Virus record (IMG/VR): IMGVR_UViG_3300050159_000048
DNA length: 64,000 bases
Origin: a virus
Lineage: Duplodnaviria; Caudoviricetes
Reading direction: 5' to 3' (one strand)
The notes under the pieces are model-generated. The model saw only the letters and a list, made by a program, of their open reading frames with translations, made no database searches and was not told where the DNA came from. Within the stretch, counting starts at the first letter, position 1; the number at the start of each line of letters is the position of its first letter. The position numbers were made by a program, and so were the translations under genes. Of the stretch, positions 22,256 through 63,804 are shown one piece after another.

Positions 22256-23005
22256 TCAAGCCTTCTTCGCAGGGGCTTTCTTCGCAGGGGCTTTCTTTGC
22301 GGGTGTCGGTTTTTGACTTTGAGCAATAGCAGCTTCAATTGCGTCAGCAATCGCTTGCTCGGCCTTTTGCAGCTCAGCAGCTTCTTCATTCATCTTTTCC
22401 ACCATCTTTTCCAGACGGGTACGAATCTCAGGAGACTGCATCCACTTGTCCTCACCGCGAGCGATCCGTTCGTACTCCTCTTCAGTAAGGAAGGGAATGT
22501 AGATGTCTTTTGCGAGGGAATTGAACCAGCTAACCGTCGCCTCCAGTTCTGCAACAAGCTCATTACCCTTACCGATCAGGCCACTGTTGAAGTTGTGGAA
22601 CATCATCATGCAGTGATCATTCACAACCATCTCGTCACCAGCAAGGAAGATCAGTGTTCCGAGGGAGTATGCTACACCCTCTAGCACAGTAACTACCTTA
22701 GCTTGGCTGTTTTGGATAGCGTTGATGATTTGGACACCAGTGTCCAAATGTCCGCCTGGTGTGTTCAAATGAATGAAGATCACGTCTGAAGGGCCAGCGG
22801 CACTGATTCGATAAATCATGTCCACGTAGTGTTCAGCTTCGCCGATCGTTTTGCTGATGTAGAAATGCGCATGCTGAGCCGTATACGTCTGCTCAAAATG
22901 GCGGTAGGGCTTTTTCTCGAGTTCAGCCAGCGGAAACTTGAGTTCCTGCTGTTCCTCGTCGTCTCCAGGTGTATTACGGCGTGCCGCTGCGTACTTGTAT
23001 TGCAT
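22256..23005 (-). CDS. clpP: ClpP-like serine protease with C-terminal PAKKA repeats
   Basis: LNTPGG, AYSLG (Ser), MFHN (His), GEDKW (Asp). Confidence 0.88.
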   Translation of the reverse strand: MQYKYAAARRNTPGDDEEQQELKFPLAELEKKPYRHFEQTYTAQHAHFYISKTIGEAEHYVDMIYRISAAGPSDVIFIHLNTPGGHLDTGVQIINAIQNSQAKVVTVLEGVAYSLGTLIFLAGDEMVVNDHCMMMFHNFNSGLIGKGNELVAELEATVSWFNSLAKDIYIPFLTEEEYERIARGEDKWMQSPEIRTRLEKMVEKMNEEAAELQKAEQAIADAIEAAIAQSQKPTPAKKAPAKKAPAKKA

Positions 23006-23067
23006 TCTCGTATTCCCTCCATAAGGTGCAGGTATATACGAGCGAAATGTTGGGGCGGAGAAACCCA

Positions 23068-23101
23068 AATAACGAGAGCACCCGAAGGTGCTCTCGTTAT
23101 T
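23068..23101 (-). terminator. Intrinsic terminator downstream of tmRNA
   Basis: 15-bp perfect stem, UUCG loop on minus strand, followed by U-rich tract. Confidence 0.8.
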
Positions 23102-23199
23102 AGTTTGGTAATAAGGTTAATCACACCTCATGCCGGTATGTTATTAAGCTGCAAGGGCACCTTTTTATCAAGGAGCGGATTACACACAGCAAATGGAAA

Positions 23200-23507
23200 G
23201 AGGTGGATGTTAGTCCACCTCTTTAATCATGTTGGGTTACAAGGTTGATCAGACCCCGTGGAGTTTACGCCGCTAGGCGCATTTCTCCGTAAAATGCATC
23301 GTTAGCATTTAGTTGATTTGCTTGATTTACGGTCATCGCCTACCGTGCTGTCCACTTCAATACTCATCGCCCAGTCGAAACCATGACATCCCCATTACAA
23401 ATCACACCAATTGGTGTGATTTGTGGTGGAGATGGCGGGAGTCGAACCCGCGTCCTGAACTCTTTCTATCCACTTCTGTTCCTACTTTTGTAGGATGTTC
23501 ACAGCAA
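23200..23507 (-). ncRNA. ssrA: Circularly permuted (two-piece) tmRNA; outer ends approximate
   Basis: Acceptor piece ends GCGGG-UUCGACU-CCCGC-CAUCUCC-A-CCA at 23424; coding piece starts GGGGAUG at 23393; G3:U70; tag frame 23306-23265 ANDAFYGEMRLAA*. Confidence 0.92.
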
Positions 23508-23539
23508 TACGTCTATTTACTCATATTTTGAGGGAAACG

Positions 23540-23749
23540 TCAACTGTCACAATCTAGCGATTCTTCGTCGTCGTGATCAATAATGTGTCTTAGTTGTTGC
23601 TTACCTATGTTGCGCTCGCGCTTATGGATCGCATGCTTGATCTTTTTGCGAGCCTCACGGACTTCTTTCTTATTGGATTGTGTTTCCACCTGACCCAACA
23701 AATCGTACGTCTCCTTCAAGTGCTGAGTTCTTTTGTCTTGTTGCTTCAT
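23540..23749 (-). CDS. Hypothetical basic protein
   Basis: Start MKQQDK after GAGG SD. Confidence 0.5.
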   Translation of the reverse strand: MKQQDKRTQHLKETYDLLGQVETQSNKKEVREARKKIKHAIHKRERNIGKQQLRHIIDHDDEESLDCDS

Positions 23750-24616: not shown

Positions 24617-25144
24617 TTACGACTTAGTCTTCGCAGCCCAGTCCAAATCCAGGTCTTCGCCATACTCATGATTGATCTTGAGTTTGCTGATAGCGTCCGC
24701 AATATCTGGTAGGGTTTTTTCGTCCAAGTCGCCAATGTCATACGAGAGTGTGACGTGCGTTTTGTATTCGGGGAAGTCGTAGGTGGCATCATGCTCGTCC
24801 ATCAATTCCTTATGGCGATCGTTTAGCTCCTCACATTTGAACTTCATTACCAAGCAGCGCTTTGGTTCTTCGTCACGAAGCTTTCCTTTTGACTCCCACA
24901 CCTCCAACCCAACAGGAGTACCGATCCAAGCTGGATCAATGTCACCCTGTGGCTCATAATCTGGACAGTGTTTGCGACTGTACAGAACTGTGCAGTGCAG
25001 TTTTTCTGCTGGCACACCGTTTGGGATCTCGTTGTTCTCAATATACTTGCGAATGTTGTTGACGGTACTCTCGTCAAACTTCACCGCTGCATATGTACCG
25101 GGTTCTGGGCTGTCTTCTTTTTCGAGGAGTTCAAATAGTTTCAT
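24617..25144 (-). CDS. acb1: Acb1/T4 gp57B-like 2H phosphodiesterase (anti-CBASS nuclease homolog)
   Basis: YAAVKF, LHCTVLYSR, LEVW, ATYDFPEYKTHVTLSY, EYGEDLDLDWA match T4 57B pattern. Confidence 0.88.
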   Translation of the reverse strand: MKLFELLEKEDSPEPGTYAAVKFDESTVNNIRKYIENNEIPNGVPAEKLHCTVLYSRKHCPDYEPQGDIDPAWIGTPVGLEVWESKGKLRDEEPKRCLVMKFKCEELNDRHKELMDEHDATYDFPEYKTHVTLSYDIGDLDEKTLPDIADAISKLKINHEYGEDLDLDWAAKTKS

Positions 25145-25158
25145 TATTCACTTTTCGT

Positions 25159-26265
25159 TCACACCGGTTCAAATCCAGTGCGGCCCTCTTTCAATGTGTT
25201 AGGGATCACGGGTTGTCCATACATCCAGTGTCTGGTTGTATTGACGTGGCCTTTGCGAACGTATTTACCGACCATTTGTTTGAACTGACTGAAGTGGAAA
25301 GGCTCGTCAACACGAATGACATAGCCTTCAACCTCGCCTCTGGCGGCTTCGCGTTGCTGCTTCAGGGTGCTATATGATTGCTCAATCTTGGCTCGATCAT
25401 ACTCGCCCCAGTAAATCACCGGGCATGGAGTGACGCCAAGCAGTTCATACCACTGCAGCGTGTCTTGCCAGGTCAGGATGTGATTTGTGTCATCCCACAT
25501 GGCAAAACCATACGCATATGTTTCGAGGTCAACATATGTAATCGAGTGCTTTGCGTACATATTTTCGACGCTGAGCCTCCAACCTTCTGGAATGTCGTGT
25601 TGGAACTGAGAGGCGAACGCACGGATCCAATCACGAGACGGGTGTCCACCAGAAGTGACGGAGCGAGCATGCATGTAATCGTTGTAGATTGACGTGTTTT
25701 CACCGTCCAATTTCTCCATCACGACAACCTTTCGGCCTTCGAAGATGGAAACGTCTGGCATCATACGATCGTCATCGTGCATGCCCGGAGACCACGGCAA
25801 ATGGAAGGTTCGGGGGTATTTGACGTACTTGACAAAATCCCCAATCACGCCACCTTCAGTCAGAACCTTTTGGACGCTCTCGTCGTTAAACAGTTCGCCC
25901 CGCAGCCTGCGATTATCGTCAAGGATTACATTACCCCACTTATCGTATACGGTGTCGGTGTACATATGGGGAGGGAGGATTGGTTTGGTGATGCCGGCAT
26001 ATTCCCGAATTTGCTCAACAGTGATCTGAGTTCGTTCACACGCAAGGTGATGCTCGGAACATACGGATGCACCGTTGTTCAAGTGATATCCCTGACAATC
26101 ACCAAACAACCTTCGCTCAATTATATGATGGGCATCAACCGCTGGTGCCCCACACACAACGCAGCGGTAAGCGTCACGTTGGAATGTATGCTCACGAAAC
26201 TGATCACGTGTCAGTCGTTGATTGGTGGTGCAGCACGAGCTTGCACCAGCTGATAAATTGCTCAT
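25159..26265 (-). CDS. HNH-domain/RNA ligase fusion protein
   Basis: N-term CVVC..DAHHI..NGASVC..HH; C-term KYPRTFHL, EKLDGEN, EGYVIR, KYVR. Confidence 0.88.
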   Translation of the reverse strand: MSNLSAGASSCCTTNQRLTRDQFREHTFQRDAYRCVVCGAPAVDAHHIIERRLFGDCQGYHLNNGASVCSEHHLACERTQITVEQIREYAGITKPILPPHMYTDTVYDKWGNVILDDNRRLRGELFNDESVQKVLTEGGVIGDFVKYVKYPRTFHLPWSPGMHDDDRMMPDVSIFEGRKVVVMEKLDGENTSIYNDYMHARSVTSGGHPSRDWIRAFASQFQHDIPEGWRLSVENMYAKHSITYVDLETYAYGFAMWDDTNHILTWQDTLQWYELLGVTPCPVIYWGEYDRAKIEQSYSTLKQQREAARGEVEGYVIRVDEPFHFSQFKQMVGKYVRKGHVNTTRHWMYGQPVIPNTLKEGRTGFEPV

Positions 26266-49019: not shown

Positions 49020-49945
49020 TCGCAAGCAACAACAGCTTGCAACGCTCTTTAAGAAATTAGTAGTAAATCGAAACTACTTTCACAGACGACTGTGAAAGAC
49101 GGTTTTCCGTGAAAGTAGTTTTGGGGCATGGCCCCGATAAGCGTGGCGACACGTAAAAGCAGAATGTCCTACACATCTGCGCCAAAACCGAAAGGTGGTG
49201 GTCAATCCATGCAAGCCTAAACCTCTTCCGAAAGGAAGTAATCGCTGACCGCGGTTATAGGTAGGAAGTCAGTGTTGTGGAAAGAACGTTTGCTCAAGCG
49301 CCCGCAAGGGTAACGCAAGTAGACGGAAAGTAACGCGTGGTGGCGACTTCACAACAAAACCAACTGACCAATACGTATGGTTAAAGGTAGTGTTATGGTC
49401 TGAGATTCGCACTCAAAGGCTGTAATGCAAACTGATAGGGCATCGGTGACTGAGATATGTTGTCAGTGTTCTTGAAAGTTGATTGAGTAGCCGGCAGGTG
49501 AAAGATATGAGGTGTGTTGTATTTCGTAGCCCAAAAGGTTATGAAGCAACTGGACGCACACATCTCGGTAGGTTATGCAGCGGGTGATTCCGCACATTTC
49601 AATAGGTATGAAATCTTTATCAAAAACGCAAAGTTGCGTCCGGTGCAACGTGAAAGTGGCTTAATCCTGCAGCTGAAAAGTAATGCAGGCAATCAAAGCT
49701 CGCAAGGCAGAGATTGTTGAAGAAGAATCGCACGTAGAGAGTTAGCGCTCTTGAACAGCCCGCAAGGTTGGCGGTAGAGGAAACTTCGAATAGCGTTGTA
49801 CGACGAGCGAACCGCCACGCTCTAAATAAGGCAGTCATGTTAGTGTACATCCTTGAGGATGTGGATAAGAGTAGAACCGCTGGTGTAGCAACTAGTTGGA
49901 TAATGACTCAAAAGTGCTAACATTAATGGTGTAATCTCAACCATA
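49020..49945 (+). ncRNA. Large structured ncRNA, GOLLD-like
   Basis: ~925 nt without credible ORF, many GNRA hairpins, 3' domain AAGGCAGUCAUG..GAGUAG..ACUCAAAAG..GUAAUCUCA directly before a tRNA. Confidence 0.7.
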
Positions 49946-49950
49946 CTCAT

Positions 49951-50025
49951 CTCGGTGTAGCGCAGTCTGGTTAGCGCATCTGCTTTGGGAGCAGAGGGTC
50001 GTAGGTTCGAATCCTACTACCGAGA
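49951..50025 (+). tRNA. tRNA-Pro(UGG)
   Basis: Cloverleaf, tctgc-tt TGG ga-gcaga; CCA not encoded. Confidence 0.95.
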
Positions 50026-51799: not shown

Positions 51800-51875
51800 G
51801 CGCTCGTAGCTCAGTGGTTAGAGCGGCGGTCTCTAAAACCGTTTGTCGCGGGTTCGAATCCCGCCGAGCGCACCA
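51800..51875 (+). tRNA. Amber suppressor tRNA (CUA)
   Basis: gcggt-ct CTA aa-accgt; complete cloverleaf, A73, CCA. Confidence 0.92.
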
Positions 51876-60884: not shown

Positions 60885-60961
60885 GGTGTACGTAGCTCAA
60901 TTGGTAGAGCCCAGGATTGTGATTCCTGCCGTTGCGAGTTCGAATCTCGTCGTACACCCCA
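60885..60961 (+). tRNA. tRNA-His(GUG) with encoded G-1
   Basis: cagga-tt GTG at-tcctg; G-1:C73; CCA. Confidence 0.95.
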
Positions 60962-60970
60962 AATTTCAAT

Positions 60971-61044
60971 GGTGGTTGTAGTGTAGTGGCAGCAAAACAC
61001 GCTGTGAACGTGTAGGCGAGGGTTCGATTCCCCCATCCACCCCA
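60971..61044 (+). tRNA. Second tRNA-His(GUG), degenerate stems
   Basis: acacg-ct GTG aa-cgtgt; mismatches in D, T and acceptor stems. Confidence 0.65.
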
Positions 61045-61053
61045 AATTTCAAT

Positions 61054-61145
61054 GGAGCGCGGGCTGTGTGGCAAAGGCAGCACCCTGCTAAGGTGTAGGC
61101 CGGTGATGAGCCGGCCGCTGGGTTCGATTCCCAGGCGCTCCGCCA
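61054..61145 (+). tRNA. tRNA-Ser(GCU)
   Basis: gcacc-ct GCT aa-ggtgt, long variable arm, G73. Confidence 0.93.
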
Positions 61146-61162
61146 AACAATGTGTGTAGTGT

Positions 61163-61249
61163 CTGGGTGTAACTCAGCCAGGTCAGAGTGCCAGTTTTGG
61201 AAGCTGGAAGCCCGAAGGGATCTCGCAGGTTCGAATCCTGCCATCCAGA
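61163..61249 (+). tRNA. tRNA-Pro(UGG) with long variable arm
   Basis: ccagt-tt TGG aa-gctgg; 17-nt variable region. Confidence 0.85.
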
Positions 61250-61264
61250 CAGTACACATATTAT

Positions 61265-61340
61265 GCCCTTGTAGCTCAATTGGTAGAGCGCAGGATTGAA
61301 GATCCTGGCGTTGCTGGTTCAAGTCCGGTCGGGGGCACCA
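61265..61340 (+). tRNA. tRNA-Phe(GAA)
   Basis: cagga-tt GAA ga-tcctg, CCA. Confidence 0.95.
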
Positions 61341-61351
61341 AAACAATCAAT

Positions 61352-61428
61352 ACCTCTGTAACTCAGTGGACTAGAGTACTTCGCTACGAACGAAGGAGTC
61401 GCAGGTTCGAATCCTGCCAGAGGTACCA
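61352..61428 (+). tRNA. tRNA-Arg(ACG)
   Basis: cttcg-ct ACG aa-cgaag, CCA. Confidence 0.95.
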
Positions 61429-61446
61429 AACAATGCAAAGATATAG

Positions 61447-61535
61447 AGGGGCGTAGTGTAATTGGTTAACATCCCAGGCTTTGAACCTGGAGACCGAGAA
61501 GGTATATGTAGGTTCGAGTCCTACCGCCCCCGCCA
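61447..61535 (+). tRNA. tRNA-Gln(UUG) with long variable arm
   Basis: ccagg-ct TTG aa-cctgg; 17-nt variable region; A1:C72 mismatch, G73, CCA. Confidence 0.85.
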
Positions 61536-61540
61536 ACAAT

Positions 61541-61670
61541 GGAGTTTTAGTGTAATGGATAGCACAGAAACAATACTCAAGTTGATTTTGACTCACGAAA
61601 GTGCTGCGTAAACGTAGAGTTACTTCGTATGTGAAACGACTAGACCGCGGTTCGATTCCCGGAAACTCCA
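61541..61670 (+). ncRNA. tRNA-like RNA with expanded anticodon domain
   Basis: Acceptor GGAGUUU/AAACUCC, D arm GUGU..GCAC, T loop UUCGAUU, ~75 nt multi-hairpin insert instead of anticodon arm. Confidence 0.65.
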
Positions 61671-61777
61671 CAAATGAAAGTAGTTACAGCGCTGTGTGCT
61701 TAGTCGGATGGTCCGTAACTGTAATGCCTGCCCGTTCGATTCGGGATGTAGGGTAATAGCACACGCTTTCATCCAAT

Positions 61778-61850
61778 CTCTCGCTCATATAACTGGATAA
61801 TATACAACCCTACGAAGGTTGGAATACGGGTTCGAATCCTGTGCGAGGGT
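61778..61850 (+). tRNA. Second tRNA-Arg(ACG)
   Basis: caacc-ct ACG aa-ggttg; CCA not encoded. Confidence 0.8.
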
Positions 61851-61875
61851 CAGATACACACGAGGAAAGGTCAAC

Positions 61876-62775
61876 GTGACAGATGCAGAGGCACTTCTCC
61901 TAGTTTGGAAGTACGTCAACGGTTCAATACCGCGCGTGTCGCAACAATCTGCAGACATGATCGCACTAGTTGCTCCACCGTACAATCAAACAATGGGATC
62001 AGCGTTAATGATGCTGACGGGCTATGCAAATCGTCCTGCAAGCATCCAATGCATCGCACAGCTAATTGATCATATCAACCGTGTGAATGGTCCGACTAAT
62101 GATCTTTTTCATTGGGTTGAAAAAACACTGATTAATCTGACAAGTCATGTGACTGACGAGATTGGTGTTGAATTCTGGCCTGACGGTGTGAGTAAGATTG
62201 CGTTCCCTGATACAAACCATTACAAATGGCAGCTGGTTCAGTCGGAACAGCAAGCAGGTCACGGTGAGTGGATGCAACACTGTCTACGCAATCCAGATGT
62301 TGTGTGGAACAAAATTGCAACAGTCTATTCATTGGTTAATACCAACGGTGTAGCAGTACGTACAGCAGCGTGCTCGTTAAACGGACATGGATTGTTTGTA
62401 GTTGCAGGCAAGCAAAGCTCACAGCAAAGCACGCTAGCGCGTGTACAAGCGTTGTGTGAGCTTCTCAACACAAACCCTTCTCTGCTGTTGACGTTATCAG
62501 ATCCGATCCTACATAATCAAGGAATTGTTTATGCAGACGAACATTGGCAGCGGTTGTCAACGTTGGGGTTAAAGCAGATAATTAGTGGTAGTTTGAACTG
62601 CAACAACTACCACCAAGCAATCAATTTGCGTCCAAGCCTTGTAATTCAAGGAAACGCTTTTTGGTGCAATACGCGAGCAACACCGCAATGCATAGTTGAA
62701 GGGGATGTGATCACACATCCATCTCAATTGCATAGTAAAGTTTGTGAGCTGTATGGTGAAAGTATAATGGCGTAG
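61876..62775 (+). CDS. Hypothetical protein embedded in tRNA array
   Basis: GTG start after GAGGAAAGG; stop runs 7 nt into tRNA-Asp. Confidence 0.65.
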   Translation: MTDAEALLLVWKYVNGSIPRVSQQSADMIALVAPPYNQTMGSALMMLTGYANRPASIQCIAQLIDHINRVNGPTNDLFHWVEKTLINLTSHVTDEIGVEFWPDGVSKIAFPDTNHYKWQLVQSEQQAGHGEWMQHCLRNPDVVWNKIATVYSLVNTNGVAVRTAACSLNGHGLFVVAGKQSSQQSTLARVQALCELLNTNPSLLLTLSDPILHNQGIVYADEHWQRLSTLGLKQIISGSLNCNNYHQAINLRPSLVIQGNAFWCNTRATPQCIVEGDVITHPSQLHSKVCELYGESIMA

Positions 62776-62844
62776 TAGCATAGCGGCTAATGCACCTCTC
62801 TGTCTAAGAGGTTTACGAGGGTTCGAGTCCCTTCTACGTCGCCA
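62769..62844 (+). tRNA. tRNA-Asp(GUC)
   Basis: cctct-ct GTC ta-agagg, G73, CCA. Confidence 0.93.
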
Positions 62845-62997
62845 ATTGTGTGCGGCTGAAAGCAGCGGCGGATTTAGCTCCCGTCGTCACAGTAAGCCAG
62901 AAACCCAGGCTCTGACCGGAGGATATTTGAACAAACCGGTGTAGCATTTCAAGTAATCTGGCCAGAGAACGAAATGTGAGGTAACACAATGAACAAT

Positions 62998-63072
62998 GGG
63001 GTGTTGATATATGGGTTATTATCCTTGACTGTCTATCAGGGCAAACGGGTTCGAGTCCCGTACACCTCGCCA
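62998..63072 (+). tRNA. Second tRNA-Asp(GUC)
   Basis: cttga-ct GTC ta-tcagg, G73, CCA. Confidence 0.9.
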
Positions 63073-63078
63073 AACAAT

Positions 63079-63150
63079 GAGCCCGTTGACGCTGGGACAT
63101 GCGCGCGCCCAACGATAGTGGATTTGCCGGTTCGATTCCGGTCGGGTTCG
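63079..63150 (+). pseudogene. Pseudo-tRNA
   Basis: Acceptor gagcccg/cgggttc and T arm intact; anticodon arm does not pair; no CCA. Confidence 0.6.
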
Positions 63151-63164
63151 CAGAGAGAAACAAT

Positions 63165-63247
63165 GTAGGTGCCATCCTTGGAGAGATAAGCACGCTGTAA
63201 ACGTGTGGCCTTTGGCTGAGTAGGTTCGATTCCTACCACCTACACCA
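63165..63247 (+). tRNA. tRNA-Tyr(GUA)
   Basis: gcacg-ct GTA aa-cgtgt, long variable arm, A73, CCA. Confidence 0.88.
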
Positions 63248-63293
63248 ATTTAACCCTGTTGACCGAAAGACCGGGTTAGAATACAATGAAATC

Positions 63294-63491
63294 ATTCGCT
63301 AATCTCAACCTCTGATACAGCATCAAATGGATGTTACTTAGTTTGAAAAAGGTCGGCACAACGCGAGGAACGCTCAGTCCAAGCAAAACCGGCGCCTATT
63401 CTGAGCAAATAGGAAAGTCTTCGGCGGTACGGCGGACTACCCGTGAAAGGGCGGTCAGGAAACCGGAGCTCGGAGGTTGAGATTAGTGAAT
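63294..63491 (+). ncRNA. Unclassified ~200 nt structured RNA with pseudoknot
   Basis: 19-bp closing stem 63294-63312/63473-63491; loop CUGAGC pairs with GCUCAG. Confidence 0.7.
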
Positions 63492-63497
63492 ACAAAT

Positions 63498-63584
63498 GGG
63501 TGATGAGCAGCACTGGCGACTGCAGCAGACTGTAAATCTGTGTGCCTTCGGGCAAACTAGGTTCGACTCCTAGATCACCCACCA
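63498..63584 (+). tRNA. Second tRNA-Tyr(GUA)
   Basis: gcaga-ct GTA aa-tctgt, variable arm tgcc-ttcg-ggca, CCA. Confidence 0.93.
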
Positions 63585-63729
63585 AATATGAGGGGGCGGA
63601 AGCACTACCTCGGAAACTGAAGGTTGATCCATATCTCAAAGGATACCGCCTAATTAGCGGGAAAGTATGGCAGGGGTGGATCGTGAAGACTGCGGAACGA
63701 CCGATATGCCGCTAGTTTCCAAATACAAT

Positions 63730-63804
63730 GTCCCGTTAGATTAATGGTGAGATCAGCAGGCTTTCAACCTGCAGGGAGGGGATCGTGACCCCTACGGGAT
63801 GCCA
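63730..63804 (+). tRNA. tRNA-Glu(UUC)
   Basis: gcagg-ct TTC aa-cctgc; T loop AUCGUGA; CCA. Confidence 0.9.

What the first reader, a model, noticed from the sequence alone, without database searches (positions are those of the whole stretch)
23200..23507. Phage-encoded circularly permuted (two-piece) tmRNA
On the minus strand the tmRNA 3' end (T arm, CAUCUCC-A-CCA ending 23424) comes before its 5' end (GGGGAUG at 23393). The strands form a perfect 7-bp acceptor stem with the G3:U70 alanine determinant, and P2 pairing UGGGC/GUUCA is present. The 30-nt intervening segment is almost entirely a perfect 28-nt palindrome (23397-23424, acaaatcacaccaattggtgtgatttgt) that includes the terminal A of CCA. 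The tag ANDAFYGEMRLAA* follows a UAAAU-G resume context. Permuted tmRNAs are established in alphaproteobacteria, some betaproteobacteria and marine cyanobacteria; the phage tmRNAs I know of are one-piece. The palindromic spacer looks like a distinctive processing signal.
Basis: partly seen in the sequence, partly recalled or inferred. Interest (0 to 1): 0.85.

Follow-up and report, generated by a model that had tools for sequence, protein, structure and literature searches.

The report
Two-piece tmRNA gene in T4-like phage
This large T4-like phage carries a complete "back-to-front" (two-piece) copy of tmRNA, the RNA that rescues stalled ribosomes, but such phage genes are already published and common in viral metagenomes, and its hairpin spacer is shared by the whole gene family.

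Summary
ARAGORN and two Rfam models call a circularly permuted tmRNA at 23197-23524 (-), tag ANDAFYGEMRLAA*. It sits in a 183-kb contig of a T4-like phage.

It is of the betaproteobacterial type: it scores 116.9 bits on the beta model, and below threshold on the alpha and cyanobacterial models.

The novelty claim fails. Phage two-piece tmRNAs were published in 2022 (PMC9004378). I found the same type in about 80 IMG/VR contigs and, unannotated, in two cultured phages. This scan has noted phage permuted tmRNAs on other DNA many times.

The window's copy is a divergent member of a mostly viral clade. It is 71% identical or less to any other row of the tree alignment, and BLAST found at most about 78% identity over about 190 nt. 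No close bacterial donor turned up. Its 13-residue tag recurs in 53 viral contigs.

The 28-nt palindrome is real, but it is the local and unusually perfect form of a hairpin conserved across this gene type. That hairpin is closed by A76 pairing with U at -4 and leaves a 3-nt leader before G1. Rfam's consensus structure does not draw it.

Processing into two pieces and function in trans-translation are inferred. Public RNA data gave no verdict.

Verdict: a new member of a known kind, of modest interest.

The parts
23514..23543 (-). Candidate promoter, weak and inferred only: TTGACG (23543-23538), an 18-nt spacer, then TAAATA (23519-23514), ending 8 nt before the first paired base of the RNA
   Evidence: Read directly. 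Its position matches the TTGAC..TATAAT promoters in front of the bacterial relatives in alignment A1. The consensus scan did NOT call it.
23424..23505 (-). Acceptor piece; the 5' end is not mapped, and 23505 is the first base of the outer P2 helix. It contains the outer P2 strand GCUGU (23505-23501) and an inserted hairpin CCUAC-AAAA-GUAGG (23494-23481). It also contains the inner P2 strand GUUCAG (23460-23455), the T arm (23451-23435), the acceptor 3' strand (23434-23428), A73 (23427) and CCA (23426-23424).
   Evidence: Rfam alignments, sequence, and co-folding of the two P2 strands with comparison to relatives.
23397..23424 (-). Hairpin of the intervening sequence: a 12-bp perfect stem (23424-23413 with 23408-23397) and an AAUU loop (23412-23409). 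Its first pair is A76 (23424) with U-4 (23397). The excised spacer itself is 23423-23394, and AAU (23396-23394) is the 3-nt leader before G1.
   Evidence: dG -17.6, z -9.5. The same register is conserved in 78 unique spacers: 87% of cells pair, against 36-54% in slid registers.
23197..23393 (-). Coding piece. It has the acceptor 5' strand GGGGAUG (23393-23387), UGGUUUCGAC (23383-23374) and the inner P2 strand CUGGGC (23374-23369). It then has the outer P2 strand ACAGC (23351-23347) and the PK1-region hairpin (23345-23330). After the tag come a hairpin (23251-23246 with 23229-23224) and a terminal 10-11 bp hairpin (23224-23197).
   Evidence: Rfam beta_tmRNA alignment over model positions 1-331, sequence.
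23265..23306 (-). Tag reading frame: resume codon GCU (23306-23304), 13 codons giving ANDAFYGEMRLAA, and stop UAA (23267-23265). It is preceded by UAAAU (23311-23307).
   Evidence: ARAGORN, Rfam alignment, and comparison with L071, which shows 6 synonymous and 1 non-synonymous codon differences.

Best explanation
This is a working ssrA gene of the betaproteobacterial two-piece type, carried as an accessory translation gene by a large T4-like phage found in leaf-litter and freshwater samples.

Shown by the sequence: the gene order is acceptor piece, 30-nt spacer, then coding piece. The tRNA-Ala-like domain is complete, with a 7-bp acceptor stem, G3:U70, A73, an encoded CCA and a consensus T arm. 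P2 helices join the two halves. A 13-codon tag frame ends in LAA.

Inferred from what is established for Caulobacter and beta-type two-piece tmRNAs: the gene is transcribed as one precursor. The spacer hairpin clamps the CCA end and the 5' leader together, so the acceptor stem forms. RNase P then cuts before G1 (23393). An endonuclease, followed by 3' trimming, removes the hairpin down to CCA (23424). The two RNAs stay paired through the acceptor stem and P2. Host AlaRS charges the RNA and host SmpB and EF-Tu deliver it to stalled ribosomes. The nascent chain receives (A)ANDAFYGEMRLAA, an AAND..Y...LAA degron of the kind read by SspB and ClpXP.

The likely benefit to the phage is to keep ribosomes free while mRNAs are being broken during infection or by host defences. 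That last point is a guess.
For: - Detection.
- Lineage type: 116.9 bits on the beta model (cut-off 84), against 40.3 on the alpha model (cut-off 50) and 54.8 on the cyanobacterial model (cut-off 70).
- Phage setting: the window lies in a 183-kb IMG/VR virus record. The flanks carry topoisomerase II, primase, DHFR, RNA ligase and Acb1, and the record encodes a gp23-type capsid protein. An independent 15.9-kb metagenome contig spans the region with no differences, and many samples hold it.
- Selection on the tag: relatives found through the tRNA-like domain alone (L012, L019, L021, L029) encode ANDAFYGEDRLAA. Against L071 there are 6 synonymous and 1 non-synonymous codon differences.
- Helices: compensatory changes occur in the acceptor stem and in the inner and outer P2 helices.
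- Spacer hairpin: it is conserved in register, shows many pair types and includes G.U pairs.
- Phylogeny: the window falls in a 48-row clade (support 92/99) made of 44 viral rows, the window itself and 3 bacterial rows.
Against: - There is no direct evidence of transcription, of processed ends at 23424 and 23393, of alanylation or of tagging. The public RNA runs held only conserved fragments of other organisms' tmRNAs.
- No convincing sigma-70 promoter or U-tract terminator was called.
- No SmpB or ClpX gene lies in the 183 kb held, so the RNA would depend on host factors. The record is only about 52% complete.
- The window's branch is long (0.35) and its place inside the clade is unresolved.
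Confidence: 0.85

Rival explanations
1. It is a passenger: a host ssrA picked up by the phage, with no role of its own and on its way to decay.
For: The gene is clearly of a bacterial (beta) type. Three bacterial genomes (G400, G070, G250) sit in the same clade, and in G400, the only one tested, the permuted gene is the only tmRNA found.
Against: No bacterial sequence searched exceeds 75% identity over about 160 nt. This covers 401 genomes of the order and 32 motif matches across the GTDB species representatives. Every functional element is intact. The tag is shared with 53 viral contigs and differs from that of L071 mostly by synonymous changes. All four tmRNA-bearing viral records tested are T4-like, which points to long residence in phages.
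Confidence: 0.08
2. It is a decoy that soaks up host SmpB or AlaRS to block host trans-translation, as proposed for the tRNA-like-domain-only gene of mycobacteriophage DS6A.
For: Phage tRNA-like-domain-only tmRNA genes exist and inhibit tmRNA when expressed in E. coli (PMC4131195, PMC11915505).
Against: Here the full coding piece is present: the resume context, a 13-codon frame, a stop codon and the downstream hairpins. The peptide is conserved through synonymous changes. A decoy would not need any of these.
Confidence: 0.04
3. The 28-bp palindrome acts at the DNA level, as a protein-binding site, recombination site or terminator, and not as an RNA hairpin of the precursor.
For: It is a perfect palindrome, so it reads the same on both strands. 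Its centre, CAATTG, is itself a short palindrome.
Against: Relatives keep a hairpin at the same place with unrelated sequences. Their spacer lengths run from 9 to 138 nt, and 61 of 429 paired cells are G.U, which pair only in RNA of this strand. No U-tract follows the stem.
Confidence: 0.03
4. It is an assembly chimera: a bacterial ssrA joined to phage DNA by mis-assembly.
For: The contig comes from a metagenome.
Against: Phage genes flank the gene closely on both sides. A separate run's 15.9-kb contig covers 22200-24200 with no differences, and 14 runs hold at least half of the sampled words. Some of these runs may be the source sample. Fifty-three other viral contigs carry the same tag clade.
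Confidence: 0.01

Closest known systems
Betaproteobacterial two-piece tmRNA (Rfam RF01850; Sharkady and Williams 2004, cited from PMC9004378 and PMC3985003, not readable here)
   Same: The match covers the full model at 116.9 bits. The gene order is the same. The tRNA-like domain, the P2 helices, the PK1-region hairpin, the UAAAU-GCN resume context, the AND...LAA tag and the two hairpins after the tag are all shared. The stem-closed spacer is shared too.
   Different: It is carried by a phage. Identity to any bacterial copy searched is 75% or less. The tag is 13 codons, against the usual 10. There is an extra hairpin (23494-23481) and about 25 extra nt in the acceptor piece, and these threw off Rfam's alignment of the outer P2 helix. 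The canonical TTGAC/TATAAT promoter of the bacterial genes is missing.
Viral clade with tag ANDAFYGExRLAA in uncultured T4-like phages (for example IMG/VR 3300032249_000542, a complete 169,777-bp genome with terminal repeats)
   Same: The tag is the same except at one position. The gene is the same beta type, scoring 158-173 bits. The phages have the same gp23-type capsid. The spacer is stem-closed with a 3-nt leader.
   Different: Identity is only 71% in the tree alignment (best row L119) and 76-78% over about 190 nt by BLAST against L012, L019, L021 and L029. The sequence of the spacer stem is unrelated. None of the window's flanking genes has a homologue in the loci fetched up; the tag-clade loci fetched were not compared.
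Two-piece ssrA of OM43 phage Melnitz and pelagimyophages (PMC9004378)
   Same: It is also a permuted tmRNA gene in T4-like aquatic myophages, with a proposed role in maintaining translation or tagging proteins.
   Different: The Melnitz gene is related to alphaproteobacterial (SAR11) ssrA and carries a glutamine riboswitch. The window's gene is beta-type, and Rfam found no riboswitch next to it.
Unannotated permuted tmRNAs in the cultured phages Synechococcus phage BUCT-ZZ01 (ON615601) and Stenotrophomonas phage DLP_6 (KU682439)
   Same: Both score above threshold on the beta model (94.5 and 103.7 bits) and both are large phages: BUCT-ZZ01 is filed in Kyanoviridae, and I know DLP_6 as T4-like only from memory. 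BUCT-ZZ01 also has a tRNA(CUA) nearby, as this window does.
   Different: Their tags differ (ANDETFSMALAA and ANDDSFAPMAIAA). Their hosts are not betaproteobacteria. The GenBank records annotate no feature under the match.

Membership tests
tmRNA (ssrA), permuted two-piece form | tRNA-Ala-like domain: 7-bp acceptor stem with G3:U70, discriminator A73, CCA, and a T arm with the GGUUCGAnUCC consensus | tested here: met
   Sequence read; Rfam alignments.
tmRNA (ssrA), permuted two-piece form | Circular permutation: the 3' acceptor strand and CCA lie upstream of the 5' acceptor strand, separated by an intervening sequence | tested here: met
   CCA ends at 23424 and G1 is at 23393 on the minus strand. 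ARAGORN flags it tmRNA*. RF04321 scores 125.2 bits against a cut-off of 47.
tmRNA (ssrA), permuted two-piece form | P2 pairing that holds the acceptor piece and the coding piece together | tested here: met
   The inner helix has 6 of 7 pairs, with a U-A to A-U swap. The outer helix is GCUGU with ACAGC, with compensatory changes in relatives.
tmRNA (ssrA), permuted two-piece form | Tag reading frame with a GCN resume codon, a hydrophobic C-terminus and a stop codon | tested here: met
   ANDAFYGEMRLAA*. UAAAU-GCU matches the family consensus. Differences from L071 are mostly synonymous.
tmRNA (ssrA), permuted two-piece form | Pseudoknot PK1 between P2 and the resume codon | tested here: inconclusive
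   The conserved hairpin CGGU..ACCG (23345-23330) is present and aligned. The second stem of the pseudoknot is not modelled by Rfam and I did not establish it.
tmRNA (ssrA), permuted two-piece form | Mature RNA exists as two pieces, meaning the spacer is removed | not testable with these tools
   The RNA runs hold only conserved fragments from other organisms, and contigs cannot show RNA ends.
tmRNA (ssrA), permuted two-piece form | Alanylation, SmpB binding and trans-translation activity | not testable with these tools
   No SmpB gene in the 183 kb held. Host factors are assumed.
Betaproteobacterial subtype (RF01850), as against the alpha (RF01849) and cyanobacterial (RF01851) subtypes | Score above the subtype's gathering threshold and above the other subtypes | tested here: met
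   116.9 bits against a cut-off of 84. The alpha model gives 40.3 against 50 and the cyanobacterial model 54.8 against 70.
Phage-encoded tmRNA | The gene lies inside a phage genome and not at a prophage-host junction | tested here: met
   It is a virus record with a gp23 capsid gene. Replication and anti-defence genes lie on both sides.
Intrinsic terminator (considered for the palindrome) | A G+C-rich stem followed by a U-tract | tested here: not met
   The stem is A+U-rich and is followed by AAUGGGG. The scan called no terminator.

The most novel reading that the evidence does not exclude
The stem-closed spacer, with A76 paired to U-4 and a 3-nt leader, may be a required maturation element of beta-type two-piece tmRNA precursors, setting both cleavage sites. 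Rfam's consensus structure does not include it, and I found no description in the literature I could read. In addition, the ANDAFYGExRLAA clade may be a self-standing viral tmRNA lineage. It would move among T4-like phages and work with the SmpB and ribosomes of unrelated hosts, as the beta-type copies in phages of Synechococcus and Stenotrophomonas suggest.
Probability: 0.35. Interest if true: 0.5.

Novelty: new member of a known kind. Interest (0 to 1): 0.3.

Why it matters
As a find it adds one more phage ssrA to a list already in print, so it changes little on its own.

Two by-products may be useful. First, they give a defined and testable model for how permuted tmRNA precursors mature. 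A 2014 review still described this step only as "probably" RNase P plus tRNase Z (PMC3985003). Second, beta-type two-piece tmRNAs turn out to be a common, mostly unannotated accessory gene of T4-like phages with a conserved tag of their own. This is a handle for asking why phages invest in ribosome rescue.

Tried and rejected
- **Expression and processing from public data.** Two run searches and one read-laying gave no verdict. The RNA runs matched only at 90-95% identity over the conserved T arm and resume region, so the reads came from other organisms. All data were contigs. The contig breaks at 23422 and 23469 in run X21 coincide with the conserved T arm and probably reflect assembly, not RNA ends.
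- **A ClpP link.** A ClpP-family protease gene lies about 130 nt downstream, and I considered a tag-and-degrade module. The protein is only distantly ClpP-like, although the active-site Ser and His align. The phage has no ClpX. The adjacency is absent in the other tmRNA phages tested. I dropped it as unsupported.
- **Stop-codon reassignment linked to the tRNA(CUA).** The window is densely coding under the standard code, and TAG ends 7 of 76 long frames. Rejected.
- **Whole-RNA minimum-free-energy folding**. It recovers the T arm, the acceptor stem, the spacer hairpin and the terminal hairpin, but not P2. I used comparative evidence for P2 instead.
- **Two regular-expression scans** missed loci, including the window itself, because of non-overlapping matching. 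I redid them properly.
- **The exact spacer sequence** occurs nowhere else in IMG/VR.
- **Founding papers.** The papers on two-piece tmRNA (PMC16621, PMC516066) are not held. I therefore could not check whether the spacer hairpin was already drawn there.

Full report
**1. The observation**

- The T arm is 23451-23435 and the acceptor 3' strand CAUCUCC is 23434-23428.
- A73 is at 23427 and CCA at 23426-23424.
- A 30-nt spacer follows, and then GGGGAUG at 23393-23387.
- The seven acceptor pairs are all standard and include G3:U70.
- GUUCA (23460-23456) pairs with UGGGC (23373-23369).
- UAAAU precedes GCU at 23306, and the frame reads ANDAFYGEMRLAA before UAA at 23267-23265.
- The 28-nt palindrome at 23424-23397 is perfect and includes the last A of CCA.

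ARAGORN independently calls a permuted tmRNA with this tag. Rfam gives tmRNA_permuted 125.2 bits and beta_tmRNA 116.9 bits, each over the whole model. The spacer folds at -17.6 kcal/mol, with z = -9.5 against shuffles.

**2. Where it sits**

The window is part of a 183-kb IMG/VR virus record that CheckV rates about 52% complete. The neighbouring genes are:
- topoisomerase II subunits, a primase and a ClpP-family protease just downstream;
- an RNA ligase carrying an HNH insertion;
- DHFR and part of a NAD-dependent ligase;
- an Acb1 anti-CBASS gene.

The record encodes a gp23-type major capsid protein, so this is a large T4-like phage. Its DNA recurs in many leaf-litter and some freshwater metagenomes. 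A separate 15.9-kb contig covers the region without a difference. It is therefore a phage gene, not a host junction or a chimera.

**3. Which kind of two-piece tmRNA**

The beta model scores 116.9 bits against a cut-off of 84. The alpha model scores 40.3 against 50, and the cyanobacterial model 54.8 against 70. The gene is of the betaproteobacterial type.

Rfam's alignment marks the outer P2 helix as unpaired, but that is an alignment artefact. The acceptor piece has about 25 extra nucleotides, including a hairpin CCUAC-AAAA-GUAGG (23494-23481). GCUGU (23505-23501) pairs with ACAGC (23351-23347). Relatives keep this helix through compensatory changes. No SmpB or ClpX gene lies in the 183 kb held.

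**4. Is a phage two-piece tmRNA new? No.**

Buchholz et al. 2022 (PMC9004378) describe one in OM43 phage Melnitz. They counted 53 two-piece forms among 133 unique phage tmRNAs, 50 of them from aquatic phages.

A motif scan for CCA, a spacer, and then GGGGNUG...UGGUUUCGAC found 29 IMG/VR contigs. A scan for the tag ANDAFYGExRLAA found 53, a few of them already among those 29. They include a complete 169,777-bp genome with terminal repeats and a 331,776-bp genome. Both score above threshold on the beta model and both are gp23-type phages.

Two cultured phages in GenBank carry beta-type permuted tmRNAs with no annotated feature under the match: Synechococcus phage BUCT-ZZ01 and Stenotrophomonas phage DLP_6. 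This scan has itself noted phage permuted tmRNAs many times on other DNA.

**5. Capture or resident?**

I sampled 401 genomes from the order of a Gallionellaceae genome. The best matches to the window were 75% identical over about 160 nt. None of the 32 motif matches across the GTDB species representatives is closer.

In a tree of 80 sequences the window falls in a 48-row clade (support 92/99). That clade holds 44 viral rows, the window and three bacterial genomes. The window's branch is long (0.35), its best identity is 71%, and its position inside the clade is unresolved.

Relatives found through the tRNA-like domain alone encode ANDAFYGEDRLAA. Against L071 the tag frame differs at seven codons, six of them synonymously. 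That is what selection on a translated peptide looks like.

So this is not a recent simple capture. It is a divergent member of a mostly viral lineage that probably came from small-genome betaproteobacteria.

**6. The palindromic spacer**

I anchored on position 76 and on G1, with no fitting, and scored the pairing of base 76+i with base G1-4-i for i = 0 to 9. The set was 78 unique spacers from 115 loci, with lengths of 9-138 nt.
- In this register 87% of cells are standard pairs.
- In registers slid by 1-3 bases, 36-54% are pairs.
- A76:U-4 occurs in 71 of 78 spacers.
- In an earlier set of 37 spacers, dealing the 3' arms among sequences gave 194 +/- 9 pairs (maximum 221 in 1000 trials), against 285 observed.
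- Most positions show several pair types. In the 48-spacer set, 61 of 429 paired cells are G.U, which pair only in RNA of this strand.

The sequences are related, so these figures overstate independence. The slid-register control does keep relatedness, and it is clear.

The hairpin is therefore a trait of the beta-type precursor, in bacteria and phages alike. The window has an unusually perfect version of it. A few relatives lack it (for example L009, L015 and L072, with 20-nt spacers), so it is not indispensable. Rfam's consensus lines leave the spacer unpaired. I could not read the founding papers to see whether it was drawn there.

**7. How it most likely works**

Shown: the gene has everything a two-piece tmRNA needs.

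Inferred: one precursor is made. The hairpin holds the CCA end and the leader together, so the acceptor stem forms with a small internal loop (A73, C74, C75 opposite the 3-nt leader). This leaves the RCCA end largely unpaired for RNase P. Leader-RCCA pairing is known to hinder RNase P (abstract of PMC9433436, as listed). RNase P cuts before G1. The hairpin is then a 3' trailer, removed by an endonuclease and by trimming that stops at CCA. The 2014 review names RNase P and tRNase Z only as probable (PMC3985003).

With the charged alanine, the tag reads AANDAFYGEMRLAA. From my own knowledge of the E. coli tag, this keeps the AAND..Y and LAA elements read by SspB and ClpX, with a longer spacer between them. 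Why the phage carries the gene is open. Keeping ribosomes free during mRNA breakdown, or during host defence by RNases, is the simplest idea. The nearby Acb1 and RNA ligase genes fit a counter-defence neighbourhood but prove nothing.

**8. Verdict**

The novelty claim is not. This is a new member of a known kind, of modest interest. The side results (the conserved stem-closed spacer, and a large and mostly unannotated viral clade with its own tag) are worth a short note, not a headline.

Noticed in passing
window 49509-49943 (+): A GOLLD RNA (Rfam RF02032, 218.8 bits, full length) lies immediately upstream of a tRNA cluster that starts at 49951.
   Followed up: no
window 51800-51875 (+): A tRNA with anticodon CUA (an amber-suppressor type, which ARAGORN labels Pyl) is the best-scoring tRNA in the window at 76.6 bits. 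TAG still ends 7 of 76 long frames, so there is no sign of reassignment. Phage BUCT-ZZ01 also has a tRNA(CUA), about 1.1 kb from its permuted tmRNA.
   Followed up: partly
window 24617-25144 (-): An Acb1 anti-CBASS phosphodiesterase (Pfam PF23474, E 2.6e-35) lies two genes upstream of the tmRNA, beside an RNA ligase (25159-26265) that carries an HNH domain.
   Followed up: no
window 22256-23068 (-): A divergent ClpP-family serine protease lies about 130 nt downstream of the tmRNA. The active-site Ser and His align with ClpP (E 6e-8 to solved ClpP structures). No ClpX is present in the record, and the adjacency is not conserved in other tmRNA phages.
   Followed up: partly
window 60886-63804 (+): A second tRNA array contains several duplicated specificities (His x2, Arg x2, Asp x2, Tyr x2), giving 17 tRNA genes in the window in all.
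   Followed up: no
L042, L048, L057 (Stenotrophomonas genomes G406-G408): These Stenotrophomonas genomes carry a standard one-piece tmRNA (191-194 bits) and also a second, beta-type permuted tmRNA. Herbaspirillum (G409) and G400 have only the permuted form. The extra copy looks horizontally acquired.
   Followed up: partly
L102 1289-1725 (ON615601) and L103 1447-1810 (KU682439): The cultured phages Synechococcus phage BUCT-ZZ01 and Stenotrophomonas phage DLP_6 carry beta-type permuted tmRNA genes, and their GenBank records annotate no feature under the match. Neither host is a betaproteobacterium.
   Followed up: yes
L111, L113, L126, L134, L143 and others (IMG/VR): Within the ANDAFYGExRLAA clade the spacer grows to 60-138 nt while keeping the same basal stem. 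The distal part is variable and was not examined for small genes.
   Followed up: no
L104 (IMG/VR 3300032296_002278): One clade member has an aberrant T arm in which the GGUUCGA consensus is lost, although its tag frame is intact. It may be a decaying or unusual copy.
   Followed up: no
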